From the IMG/VR virus record IMGVR_UViG_3300033513_000004, positions 2,053 through 66,052 of that record: 64,000 nt of DNA; one strand, 5' to 3'. Below the pieces are notes generated by a model. That model did no database searches. It saw only the letters and a program-made list of their open reading frames with translations, and had not been told where the DNA came from. The translations under genes and the position numbers were made by a program. This stretch comes from a virus. Its lineage: Duplodnaviria; Caudoviricetes. This document shows positions 29,289-50,712 of the stretch, in pieces (position 1 is the first letter of the stretch; each line of letters opens with the position of its first letter).

Positions 29289-29363
29289 TGGTTCCCCCTA
29301 CAGGACTCGAACCTGTCCCCCAGCTTTATAAGAACTGGATGCTAGCCCCTACACTTAGGGGGC
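29289..29363 (-). tRNA. tRNA-Ile (anticodon UAU)
   Basis: Cloverleaf with CCCCCT/AGGGGG acceptor (G1:A72 mismatch), anticodon stem CAGTT/AGCTG with loop CT-TAT-AA, T arm ACAGG-TTCGAGT-CCTGT, and encoded CCA. Confidence 0.8.
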
Positions 29364-29760: not shown

Positions 29761-29853
29761 CTAGGTTACTGCCATGACCAGTGTGTAACCGGAGAGGATG
29801 AGAAGGGTATAGCCGAGGATTATAAGGAACCAGTTGGTCCCGCAATGTCTCAT
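29761..29853 (-). CDS. 30-aa single-TM peptide (not in ORF track)
   Basis: MRHCGTNWFLIILGYTLLILSGYTLVMAVT*, aggag RBS. Confidence 0.45.
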   Translation of the reverse strand: MRHCGTNWFLIILGYTLLILSGYTLVMAVT

Positions 29854-29870
29854 GTACAATCTCCTAAAGG

Positions 29871-29943
29871 TGGTAGCGGGAGAAGGAATCGAACCTTCCT
29901 CGCACCGGGTATGGGCCGGTCGTCAACACCAGTTGGTCCCGCA
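29871..29943 (-). tRNA. atypical tRNA with CAU anticodon (Met/fMet/Ile2)
   Basis: Acceptor GCGGGA/TCCCGC, anticodon stem ACCGG/CCGGT with loop CC-CAT-AC, canonical T arm, and CCA. Deviations: 4-nt D loop, C8, C33, U1:U72. Confidence 0.65.
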
Positions 29944-29945
29944 AT

Positions 29946-29998
29946 TGGTGCCAAGCGATGGGAAGTACCATTCTTACCAACCCCTCGGTAGACTTGGC
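29946..29998 (-). ncRNA. 53-nt anticodon-less tRNA-like element ending in ACCA
   Basis: 7-bp acceptor GCCAAGT/GCTTGGC plus ACCA encloses two hairpins. It ends 2 nt upstream of the CAU tRNA. Confidence 0.45.
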
Positions 29999-30066
29999 GT
30001 AGTTCCCCATGGCCTATCCCCTTGAGCCAGCCTGCCATGGGGATCAGTGGCTGGTGTAGGGTACTA

Positions 30067-30651
30067 TCAGGATACATCAACCTGCCCCTTCGGTTGCTCA
30101 TCATTGAAGATCGTTTTCTTGAACAGGTATCCAGATGCCTTGTGGAAGATGACCACCCCTTCTGGGTTATGATAGCCGGGAGCGGCGAAGGAGCCCTCTA
30201 GCTGGAGTTTCTCAAGTGTGCCGTTGATAGCATCCATGAGGAAGGGTCCTTGGTATAGGACTGGGACCACCTCACAGCAGGTGGGTCTATCGGGGTTATC
30301 CGCCCACTTGGTTACATTGAACAGGGAGAACCGCTTCTCCTTCAGCCCGTATCCCCGGTTGATCTTCTGCCCCCACCATTCCCCGAAGTGGTGTCCCTTC
30401 CCGAGTTTCAGGAGTTCGCCTGCGTTGCAGTAGGCCCACGCAGCGAATCCATGGTTATCGTTCTCGGGGAAGATCCATCTAGTTCTAGACCCCACCAGGA
30501 ATGGCACCACCTTACCCGACTCCAAGGTAATGGGTGATAGATCCTCGGAGATATAGATACACCCGTTCGTACCGTCGATCTTCTCGGTAACGACGATATC
30601 CCTGGATAGCCTGGGGATCTTTCTGAACTCGACAAACTCAATCATAGCCAC
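30067..30651 (-). CDS. ATP-dependent RNA ligase (Rnl2-type nucleotidyltransferase domain)
   Basis: Motif I TEKIDGTN, FGEWWG, FSLFN, motif IV PEGVVI, and LFKK. Start may be the ATG at 30645. Confidence 0.8.
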   Translation of the reverse strand: MAMIEFVEFRKIPRLSRDIVVTEKIDGTNGCIYISEDLSPITLESGKVVPFLVGSRTRWIFPENDNHGFAAWAYCNAGELLKLGKGHHFGEWWGQKINRGYGLKEKRFSLFNVTKWADNPDRPTCCEVVPVLYQGPFLMDAINGTLEKLQLEGSFAAPGYHNPEGVVIFHKASGYLFKKTIFNDEQPKGQVDVS

Positions 30652-30655
30652 TCCG

Positions 30656-30684
30656 AATCTAGGTTCCTAGTCTGGATTTGTCAA
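30656..30684 (-). promoter_or_regulatory. sigma70-type promoter TTGACA-N17-TAGATT
   Basis: One of six promoters with identical hexamers. Lies directly upstream of the RNA ligase. Confidence 0.75.
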
Positions 30685-36468: not shown

Positions 36469-36825
36469 CTACCTTTCCTCCTCTTTCTGCCAGTGGCCGT
36501 TAATCTGCACCTCGATACGAAGATTCTCTGGGGCCATTGCTTTGTCTGTATGCTCCTCGGCCAGGGCAACTCGCCCAAGGGTCCGGGCGGTCTCCATCTT
36601 GTGCCAGCGCTTCCACTCGGGAGTTTCCAGAAGGCGGCGGAAGGCGTTCACCTTGTTCTGCGCCTGGTCCCTGGAGTCTCTGGCTTCTCCTCGCGCCCCG
36701 CTGGGCTCGTGGATGAGGCGGACCCCGGACGAGACCTTGTTCTGGTTCTGTCCACCCTTTCCGCCGGAGCGGAAGGTCTGGATGGTGAAGTCCTTTTTGG
36801 TAACGCTGAAGAGAAGCTTCTTCAC
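36469..36825 (-). CDS. stand-alone GGQ peptidyl-tRNA hydrolase / release-factor catalytic domain (ArfB/PrfH-like)
   Basis: FRSGGKGGQNQNKVSSGVRLIHEPSG...SRDQAQNKVNAFRRL is the RF domain-3 signature. Confidence 0.85.
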   Translation of the reverse strand: MKKLLFSVTKKDFTIQTFRSGGKGGQNQNKVSSGVRLIHEPSGARGEARDSRDQAQNKVNAFRRLLETPEWKRWHKMETARTLGRVALAEEHTDKAMAPENLRIEVQINGHWQKEEER

Positions 36826-47037: not shown

Positions 47038-47267
47038 TGGCCAACTGCGGAATGACCATGCTGGCCAGCGATATCCCTAGTATGGGGGTATTGGCCACTG
47101 GAAAGTTGGCCATTTATACTACCCAGATTCTAAAGGACTTAGCCTGTGGATACGTGGATACAGCCGATTTGGCCAGGTTTGGCCAGCCGATTTCCCCTCC
47201 CGTAAGTTGTTGATTCTAAAGGACCGCATTTTTCAAATCCTCTAAACCCCGTGGCCAGCGTTGGCCA
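47038..47267. repeat. putative replication origin: 8 TGGCCA palindromes, DnaA-like box, IHF consensus
   Basis: TGGCCA at 47038, 47062, 47092, 47107, 47170, 47180, 47252, 47262. gattctaaaggac twice. tgtggatac at 47145. WATCAANNNNTTR on the - strand at 47203-47215. Confidence 0.6.
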
Positions 47268-50498: not shown

Positions 50499-50712
50499 AC
50501 TCACCTAGACAGTCTCCGGTTTCGCTCCTCGAAGTTCACAATATCCCCAGACGGGATCATCCTGAAGGTCCCATCCCCCACGGGATCGCATCCGTAGTCT
50601 CCCCTACACTGCGTCGGAAGGTGCTCACGGATGATTCCTCCACTGGAGTCTAAGTGGTAGCCTCCAAGCACTACCAAGGGTTCTTTCGTGTCCTTGGCAA
50701 TAAACCTTCCCA

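What the first reader, a model, noticed from the sequence alone, without database searches (positions are those of the whole stretch)
29946..29998. Anticodon-less 53-nt tRNA mimic ending in ACCA
On the - strand, GCCAAGT pairs with GCTTGGC followed by ACCA. Inside are a 6-bp hairpin (TACCGA-GGGG-TTGGTA) and a T-arm-like hairpin (ATGG-TACTTC-CCAT) stacked on the acceptor, with no anticodon arm. It ends 2 nt before the next tRNA, like a member of a tRNA operon. Possible roles are a decoy for tRNA-acting toxins or sensors, a synthetase or RNase P substrate, or a partner of the adjacent ligase. I cannot place it in a known RNA family.
Basis: seen in the sequence. Interest (0 to 1): 0.7.

Follow-up and report, generated by a model that had tools for sequence, protein, structure and literature searches.

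The report
Anticodon-less tRNA remnant in phage
A 53-base stretch behind a phage RNA-ligase gene really carries a tRNA's acceptor stem, D-loop marks and CCA tail but no anticodon arm or T-loop, and it is most likely a broken-down tRNA gene copy, because no relative or RNA data show that it is kept for a job of its own.

Summary
The sequence is exactly as described. On the minus strand, 29998-29946 has a 7-bp closing stem (6 Watson-Crick pairs plus one G-U), then A and CCA, and it ends 2 nt before a tRNA-shaped gene.

Two features are more than chance. Such a stem plus NCCA ending within 5 nt of a tRNA start has p of about 0.003. The textbook D-loop signature (A14, R15, GG, A21) sits at the right offset, as in about 1% of random 35-mers and 42% of real tRNAs.

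The two inner hairpins are not above chance: 63% of shuffled interiors fold as well. The "T-arm-like" hairpin has no T-loop consensus. No Rfam family matches.

No homologue turned up in IMG/VR, JGI metagenomes, 86 ligase loci or a covariance-model search, so covariation cannot be tested. No RNA data were available.

The "next tRNA" is itself aberrant. It is an initiator-type tRNA(CAU) with a U1xU72 mismatch, a 4-nt D-loop and C33, and an 18-nt repeat of its 5' end lies 99 nt downstream.

Best reading (0.5): a degenerate tRNA gene copy, co-transcribed with the ligase and probably clipped out by tRNA-processing enzymes. A selected decoy or substrate role (0.25) is not excluded.

This scan has noted comparable CCA-ended mini-tRNAs in other phages; those notes are unchecked here.

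The parts
29946..29998 (-). The 53-nt element. Acceptor-like stem 29998-29992 / 29956-29950, hairpin 1 at 29990-29975, hairpin 2 at 29971-29958, A73 plus CCA at 29949-29946.
   Evidence: sequence, unique in the window; fold; statistics.
29871..29943 (-). Aberrant initiator-type tRNA(CAU), 73 nt. It has a U1xU72 mismatch, an A11:U24 pair, a 4-nt D-loop, a single base between acceptor and D stem, C33, a canonical T arm and an encoded A73-CCA.
   Evidence: ARAGORN -ps80; only tRNA-Sec, 23.9 bits. Its 20-nt T-arm/acceptor string is identical to many phage and metagenome initiator-type tRNA-Met genes.
30005..30042 (-). Perfect 9-bp hairpin with a 20-nt loop in the 68-nt spacer after the ligase stop codon. 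It ends 6 nt before the element.
   Evidence: The only difference in the spacer in a second metagenome (30038, A to G on the minus strand) turns an A-U pair into G-U.
30067..30651 (-). RNA ligase, 194 aa, nucleotidyltransferase domain only, with a KIDGTN motif.
   Evidence: PF09414; phrog_548; weak match to the DRB0094-type ligase, profile positions 159-316 of 341.
30656..30684 (-). Sigma-70-like promoter match just upstream of the ligase. The scan found no other promoter-like site and no terminator-like site between it and the element.
   Evidence: 10 of 12 matches; the number of such sites is not above shuffles.
29928..29945 (-). Copy 1 of an 18-nt direct repeat. It starts at the base right after the element's CCA and covers the 5' end of the tRNA(CAU).
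29829..29846 (-). Copy 2 of the 18-nt repeat, 99 nt downstream, inside the first codons of a small hydrophobic ORF.
29289..29363 (-). tRNA-Ile(UAU) at the end of the same gene string, with a G1xA72 mismatch and an encoded A73-CCA.

Best explanation
The 53-nt element is a degenerate copy of a tRNA gene (a pseudo-tRNA) left in a small, unstable tRNA cluster behind the phage's RNA-ligase gene.

It keeps the two acceptor strands, discriminator A73, the encoded CCA and the D-loop signature. It has lost the anticodon arm, the variable loop and the T-loop.

Inferred, not shown:
- It has no promoter of its own, so it is transcribed with the ligase.
- It keeps the features that bacterial RNase P reads (an acceptor helix with a G1-C72 pair and an RCCA tail). 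RNase P cuts at its 5' end and at the 5' end of the following tRNA, plus 3' trimming back to CCA, would release it as a by-product.
- Those cuts would leave the ligase mRNA ending just after a 9-bp hairpin.
- It does not decode, and nothing shows that it is charged.
For: tRNA origin:
- The acceptor stem plus ACCA lies exactly 2 nt before a tRNA start, p of about 0.003 from the window's own rate.
- The A14-R15...GG.A signature is at the right offset, as in 1% of random 35-mers and 42% of real tRNAs.
- The same A73-CCA ending is encoded by the phage's other three tRNA genes.
- The acceptor sequence plus A73 is that of real bacterial tRNAs: 97 Phe, 13 Leu, 8 Tyr and 2 Met among 120 hits.

Decay rather than design:
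- There is no T-loop and no Rfam or ARAGORN hit.
- The interior fold is at chance level.
- The neighbouring tRNA(CAU) is also damaged: a 4-nt D-loop, C33 and U1xU72.
- An 18-nt copy of that tRNA's 5' end lies 99 nt downstream, a sign of local duplication and deletion.
- Locus L018 shows the same kind of event: only a 5' stump of a tRNA-Met gene remains behind its ligase and tRNA-Leu.

Co-transcription:
- The only promoter-like site upstream of the element lies before the ligase, and there is no terminator-like site.
- RNase P cleaves acceptor/T-stem hairpin substrates (PMC11143913).
Against: - All 7 acceptor pairs are intact although the T-loop is gone. Uniform neutral decay would not predict that; it fits either one recent internal deletion or selection on the helix.
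- A second metagenome's contig shows no change across the element plus tRNA (127 nt) against 20 changes in 813 laid bases, so about 3 were expected and P(0) is about 0.04. For the 53 nt alone P(0) is about 0.27.
- No parent tRNA with this exact acceptor, including the U7-G66 pair, was found in 185,579 species genomes or in IMG/VR.
- No RNA ends were observed.
Confidence: 0.5

Rival explanations
1. It is a selected, functional CCA-ended tRNA-like small RNA, cut out of the ligase-tRNA transcript. It would act through its acceptor end, for example as a sponge for defence enzymes that attack tRNA 3' ends, as a substrate of the CCA-adding enzyme or the ligase, or as a processing signal that sets the ligase mRNA's 3' end.
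For: - The acceptor helix and ACCA are intact although the rest has diverged.
- It is placed exactly beside a tRNA and after a 9-bp hairpin that could cap the mRNA.
- The only spacer change in a second metagenome keeps that hairpin paired, and there is no change in the element.
- RNase P accepts acceptor/T-stem hairpins.
- Plant mitochondrial t-elements set mRNA ends in this way (PMC1920247).
- This scan's unchecked notes describe similar CCA-ended mini-tRNAs in other phages.
Against: - No homologue exists, so there is no covariation.
- The inner hairpins are no better than shuffles.
- There is no T-loop to build a tRNA elbow, and a one-base bulge lies between the acceptor and hairpin 2.
- Zero changes in 53 nt at about 2.5% divergence is not significant.
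- The closest ligase relatives (67-68% identity) have no tRNA or tRNA-like element behind them.
Confidence: 0.25
2. The true unit is a 91-nt degenerate long-variable-arm (class II) tRNA gene, 30036-29946. In this reading hairpin 1 is the variable arm, hairpin 2 is the T arm, and the reader's 5' strand is part of a ruined anticodon stem.
For: - ARAGORN at 60% thresholds draws this cloverleaf, with U8, a 3-bp D stem and GG in the D loop.
- Loci L017 and L018 carry a class II tRNA-Leu(UAA) right after their ligase genes.
Against: - Its acceptor has a G.G mismatch and a G-U pair, its anticodon stem has 3 of 5 pairs, and there is no U33.
- The cloverleaf scores -19.0 kcal/mol against an MFE of -28.5.
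- There is no Rfam tRNA hit at E up to 10.
- A tRNA-Leu sequence profile aligns nothing there.
- L017 and L018 share only the ligase with this window, and their second tRNA is not initiator-type.
Confidence: 0.1
3. It is a chance set of hairpins in an intergenic spacer with no tRNA ancestry.
For: - Fold z = -1.4 and an interior at chance level.
- 81 comparable stem-plus-NCCA sites occur in the window.
Against: - It is one of only three such sites in non-coding gaps, and the only one of these beside a tRNA.
- Positional p is about 0.003, and the D-loop signature has a likelihood ratio of about 40.
- A73-CCA matches all the phage's tRNAs.
Confidence: 0.08

Closest known systems
Pseudo-tRNAs / decayed tRNA gene copies in phage and bacterial tRNA clusters (e.g. 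Bacillus cereus tRNA-Other, PMC3399842)
   Same: It is tRNA-derived, is rejected by tRNA finders, cannot decode, and sits among working tRNA genes.
   Different: Here the whole anticodon arm and the T-loop are gone while the acceptor helix and CCA are intact. No phenotype or expression is known.
Synthetic acceptor/T-stem minihelix and hairpin substrates of RNase P, the CCA-adding enzyme and some synthetases (PMC11143913)
   Same: An acceptor helix with a G1-C72 pair, a discriminator purine and a CCA tail, with a second short helix placed to stack on it.
   Different: A third hairpin is present, one base bulges between the helices, and the stem has 4 bp rather than 5 and no T-loop. No cleavage or charging has been tested.
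Plant mitochondrial t-elements (PMC1920247)
   Same: A tRNA-like fold next to a protein gene that could direct RNase P/Z cuts and so define mRNA ends.
   Different: A different kingdom, no sequence relation, and processing here is only inferred.
Phage T4 stable RNAs C and D (species 1 and 2) in its tRNA cluster
   Same: A non-tRNA small RNA gene placed among phage tRNA genes and processed with them (from my own knowledge of the older T4 literature; no paper was retrieved here).
   Different: The T4 RNAs are about 120-140 nt. No sequence comparison was made here.
tmRNA-like tRNA domains without a coding part, seen here 6 nt upstream of initiator-type tRNAs in marine phage loci (L272, L282)
   Same: An anticodon-less tRNA-like element directly upstream of an initiator-type phage tRNA.
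   Different: Those have G3:U70, a canonical T arm and 33-38 bits against Rfam tmRNA. The present element has C3-G70, no T-loop and no tmRNA match.

Membership tests
Canonical tRNA (Rfam RF00005) | Cloverleaf with a 5-bp anticodon stem and a 7-nt loop | tested here: not met
   No RF00005 hit at E up to 10. ARAGORN finds nothing at default or at -ps80.
Canonical tRNA (Rfam RF00005) | T arm of 5 bp with a 7-nt T-loop consensus | tested here: not met
   Hairpin 2 has 4 bp and a 6-nt loop without the consensus.
Canonical tRNA (Rfam RF00005) | 7-bp acceptor stem, discriminator base and a 3' CCA | tested here: met
   A73-CCA is also encoded by the phage's other tRNA genes.
Canonical tRNA (Rfam RF00005) | D-loop signature A14, R15, G18-G19, A21 | tested here: met
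   Present at the right offset, as in 1% of random 35-mers and 131 of 311 real tRNAs. The D stem itself is not preserved.
tmRNA tRNA-like domain / coding-less tmRNA | G3:U70 alanine identity pair, a canonical T arm and a match to RF00023 | tested here: not met
   The pair is C3-G70, there is no T-loop and no RF00023 hit at E up to 10. Elements of that kind in L272 and L282 score 33-38 bits.
Bacterial Y RNA (YrlA-type tRNA mimic in Ro60 / RNA-ligase operons) | A Ro60 (TROVE) gene nearby and a match to a Y RNA model | tested here: not met
   The upstream protein has only a weak vWA match and no TROVE domain. No Rfam hit of any Y RNA family.
RNase P minihelix-type substrate / t-element | Acceptor helix with an RCCA tail, coaxial with a second helix | tested here: inconclusive
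   7 bp plus 4 bp with a one-base bulge and an extra hairpin.
RNase P minihelix-type substrate / t-element | Actual cleavage at the 5' end and a discrete RNA product | not testable with these tools
   No RNA run holds the locus.

The most novel reading that the evidence does not exclude
The element is a maintained, CCA-ended, anticodon-less mini-tRNA. The host's tRNA-processing enzymes excise it from a ligase-tRNA operon, and it works through its acceptor end. It could soak up defence enzymes that modify or cut tRNA 3' ends, or it could set the 3' end of the ligase mRNA. It would then be one more case of a largely undescribed class of phage 'tRNA top-half' RNAs that this scan has flagged in other phages.
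Probability: 0.2. Interest if true: 0.65.

Novelty: new member of a known kind. Interest (0 to 1): 0.3.

Why it matters
If it is only a broken tRNA gene, it is an ordinary by-product of the fast turnover of phage tRNA clusters. Its main use is then as a caution: acceptor-plus-CCA look-alikes need conservation evidence before they are called mimics.

If it were shown to be excised and kept, it would add a case to the open question of why phages carry anticodon-less tRNA-like RNAs next to tRNA-repair genes. It would also give a simple substrate for testing decoy or mRNA-punctuation models.

The better-supported side result is the neighbouring initiator-type tRNA. It has a remodelled D arm and anticodon loop, and it lies in a phage that also carries an RNA ligase and a stand-alone GGQ peptidyl-tRNA hydrolase domain.

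Tried and rejected
- **Rfam.** Gathering and E-value modes on the locus and on the whole window gave no family for the element.
- **ARAGORN.** Default, -ps and -ps80 find nothing for the element, and the metazoan mitochondrial (-mt) mode reports only the neighbouring tRNA(CAU). At -ps60 only the poor 91-nt class II drawing appears.
- **Homologue searches.**
  - blastn and nhmmer of the 311-nt region against 80 ligase loci found nothing.
  - IMG/VR pattern scans for the acceptor pair with 25-50 and 55-80 nt between gave only chance matches and no tRNA.
  - The tRNA(CAU) 3' 25-mer has no match in IMG/VR.
  - Covariance model R1 over 84 sources returned only the element itself and one GC-rich coding match in L052.
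  - 'phages' blastn matched only the ligase of Caulobacter phages.
  - The DNA polymerase as a kin anchor found nothing in IMG/VR.
- **Closest ligase proteins.** The best are 67-68% identical, and their contigs have protein genes, not tRNAs, right behind the ligase.
- **'Remnant of tRNA-Leu'.** I raised this from L017 and L018 (ligase, tRNA-Leu, tRNA-Met, small ORF) and dropped it as a specific claim. Those loci share only the ligase with this window. Their second tRNA is not initiator-type. Leu and Phe sequence profiles align only the acceptor end.
- **Exact parent tRNA.** None with the U7-G66 pair was found in species genomes.
- **Sequencing runs.** No RNA holder is listed. The two metatranscriptome runs of the source study laid nothing, and the source DNA run laid only an unrelated 87-nt piece. 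Parts of the stretch without cover in run X2 are not used as evidence.
- **CCA-specific excess of acceptor-like stems.** The apparent excess (81 against 37 in shuffles) comes from CCA being 1.5 times more frequent than in shuffles. The stems-per-triplet rate is the same for control triplets.
- **Protein-coding reading.** The 84-aa ORF 29850-30104 is rejected by inspection. It starts inside the ligase gene without a ribosome-binding site and runs through a tRNA gene.
- **attP-type copy of a host tRNA 3' end.** Rejected, because the stretch before the acceptor strand has no T arm.

Full report
**Setting.** The window is nearly all of a 66,052-bp IMG/VR virus record with direct terminal repeats. 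Sequencing-run holders are a wetland and a freshwater metagenome.

On the minus strand the gene order is:
- a weak vWA-domain protein, 31313-30681;
- a sigma-70-like promoter match, 30684-30656;
- a 194-aa RNA ligase, 30651-30067 (PF09414, phrog_548, a weak match to the DRB0094-type nucleotidyltransferase domain);
- a 68-nt spacer holding a perfect 9-bp hairpin, 30042-30005;
- the 53-nt element, 29998-29946;
- two bases;
- a 73-nt tRNA-shaped gene with anticodon CAU, 29943-29871;
- a small hydrophobic ORF with a good AGGAG ribosome-binding site;
- a DUF4406 / nucleoside 2-deoxyribosyltransferase-like gene;
- tRNA-Ile(UAU), 29363-29289.

The stretch 29846-30066 is one of 25 gaps not covered by any ORF of 90 aa or more.

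**The observation.** Its fold scores -17.3 kcal/mol, essentially equal to the MFE of -17.4.

That is not special. The element's z-score is -1.4. When the closing stem is enforced, 63% of 1000 dinucleotide shuffles of the 35-nt interior fold at least as well. The two inner hairpins therefore carry no statistical weight. Hairpin 2 is T-arm-like only by position: 4 bp, a 6-nt loop and no T-loop consensus.

**What is above chance.** Seven-pair stems with at most one G-U, followed by NCCA and spanning 40-95 nt, occur 81 times on the two strands of the window. The rate per triplet is the same for control triplets, so there is no CCA-specific excess. At about 6e-4 per base, one ending within 5 nt of a given tRNA start has p of about 0.003.

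The textbook D-loop signature (A14, R15, two to five bases, GG, N, A) sits at the correct distance from the acceptor strand.

The discriminator A plus an encoded CCA is also how the phage's tRNA(CAU), tRNA-Ile and tRNA-Pro genes end. The first six acceptor pairs plus A73 are those of real bacterial tRNAs, mainly tRNA-Phe (97 of 120 hits, the rest Leu, Tyr and Met).

I conclude that the element descends from a tRNA gene. It keeps both acceptor strands, traces of the D loop and the 3' tail. Its length (53 against 76) is close to that of a tRNA without its anticodon arm and variable loop.

**No family and no relatives.**
- Rfam gives nothing at E up to 10 on the locus and nothing on the whole window. 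That includes tRNA, tmRNA and Y RNA models.
- The ligase has thousands of relatives. The closest are only 67-68% identical, and their contigs carry protein genes directly behind the ligase.
- Of 86 ligase loci, only L017 and L018 have tRNAs right after the ligase. No other ORF of the neighbourhood is shared.

A second, independent metagenome (run X2) holds a 317-nt contig covering 29872-30188. It has no change in the element or the tRNA(CAU), one change in the spacer hairpin that converts A-U to G-U, and three in the ligase. At the overall 2.5% divergence of the laid pieces, zero changes in 127 nt has P of about 0.04, and in the 53 nt alone about 0.27. That is a hint, not evidence.

**The neighbourhood looks unstable.** The 'next tRNA' is found by ARAGORN only at 80% thresholds, and in Rfam only as a 23.9-bit tRNA-Sec match. 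Its T arm plus acceptor 20-mer is identical to dozens of initiator-type tRNA-Met genes in phages and metagenomes. It has the initiator marks: a 1:72 mismatch (here UxU) and an A11:U24 pair. But its D loop has only 4 nt, one base is missing between the acceptor and D stems, and position 33 is C.

An 18-nt direct repeat begins at the base right after the element's CCA, covers this tRNA's 5' end, and recurs 99 nt downstream inside the small ORF. In L018 a tRNA-Met gene behind the ligase and tRNA-Leu survives only as a 5' stump cut at the same place in the D loop. These are signs of duplication and deletion in such clusters, which is how an internally deleted tRNA copy would arise.

**Alternative unit.** ARAGORN at 60% thresholds draws a 91-nt class II cloverleaf (30036-29946) that uses the same 3' end, with hairpin 1 as the variable arm. 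It has a mismatched acceptor and a ruined anticodon stem. It scores -19.0 kcal/mol against an MFE of -28.5, whereas the 53-nt closing stem persists in the MFE of the 53-, 120- and 121-nt contexts. I keep it as a minor rival.

**Mechanism.**
- Shown: the anatomy and the tRNA ancestry.
- Inferred:
  - The only promoter-like site upstream of the element lies before the ligase, and there is no terminator-like site, so the element is transcribed with the ligase and the tRNA(CAU).
  - It keeps what bacterial RNase P reads: an acceptor helix with G1-C72 and an RCCA tail. RNase P cleaves hairpin substrates made of acceptor stem, T stem and T loop (PMC11143913).
  - Cuts at 29998 and 29943, plus 3' trimming, would release a 53-nt RNA. 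The ligase mRNA would then end 6 nt after a 9-bp hairpin.
  - This resembles plant mitochondrial t-elements (PMC1920247).
- Open: whether this is exploited or incidental. A decoy role for enzymes that act on tRNA 3' ends is possible but has no support here.

**Other notes of this scan.** Notes on other phages describe CCA-ended mini-tRNAs beside tRNA genes, one decayed tRNA-Thr, and tmRNA-like domains next to tRNAs. They are unchecked leads.

I did see the tmRNA-like kind myself, 6 nt upstream of initiator-type tRNAs in marine phage loci. The present element fails that family's defining features: G3:U70, a canonical T arm and an RF00023 match.

**Verdict.** The feature is real and tRNA-derived. 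The claim that it is a functional mimic is unproven. The most likely reading is an ordinary degenerate tRNA gene copy.

Noticed in passing
window 29871-29943 (-): The 'next tRNA' is an initiator-type tRNA(CAU) with a U1xU72 mismatch, an A11:U24 pair, a 4-nt D loop, a missing base between the acceptor and D stems, and C33. Standard finders miss it. Its T arm/acceptor 20-mer is shared with many phage initiator-type tRNAs. It may be a nuclease-resistant initiator (compare PMC10264068) or another decaying gene.
   Followed up: partly
window 29928-29945 and 29829-29846: A perfect 18-nt direct repeat, 99 nt apart. Copy 1 is the 5' end of the tRNA(CAU) and starts right after the element's CCA. Copy 2 encodes residues 3-8 of a 30-aa hydrophobic ORF with a strong ribosome-binding site.
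   Followed up: partly
window 30005-30042 (-): A perfect 9-bp, GC-rich hairpin with a 20-nt loop between the ligase stop codon and the element. The one difference in a second metagenome (30038) keeps it paired as G-U. There is no U tract, so it is not an intrinsic terminator.
   Followed up: partly
window 29289-29363 (-): tRNA-Ile(UAU) has a G1xA72 mismatch and an encoded CCA, so two of the phage's tRNAs carry 1:72 mismatches.
   Followed up: no
window 36469-36825 (-): A 118-aa protein that matches only the GGQ peptidyl-tRNA hydrolase domain of release factors, PrfH and ArfB (E 6.5e-15 to 4.7e-08). With the ligase and tRNAs it suggests a translation-rescue toolkit.
   Followed up: partly
L272 2093-2246; L282 1152-1321; also L349, L383, L396: In marine phage contigs a tmRNA-like tRNA domain (33-38 bits against RF00023 in L272 and L282, below gathering) and then a 71-nt ACCA-ended element lie just upstream of an initiator-type tRNA-Met. 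In other loci (L391, L395, L397, L409, L411, L425, L427) the tmRNA-like element sits 6 nt before the tRNA.
   Followed up: partly
L018 3640-3662: Only the first ~20 nt (acceptor strand and D arm up to GG) of the tRNA-Met gene seen intact in L017 remain behind tRNA-Leu(UAA). It is a truncated tRNA stump in the same slot relative to the ligase.
   Followed up: no
window 47078-47125 (+) and 50553-50642 (+): The only other acceptor-like stems followed by NCCA that lie in non-coding gaps. Neither is next to a tRNA. The first contains a TGGCCA palindrome hairpin.
   Followed up: no
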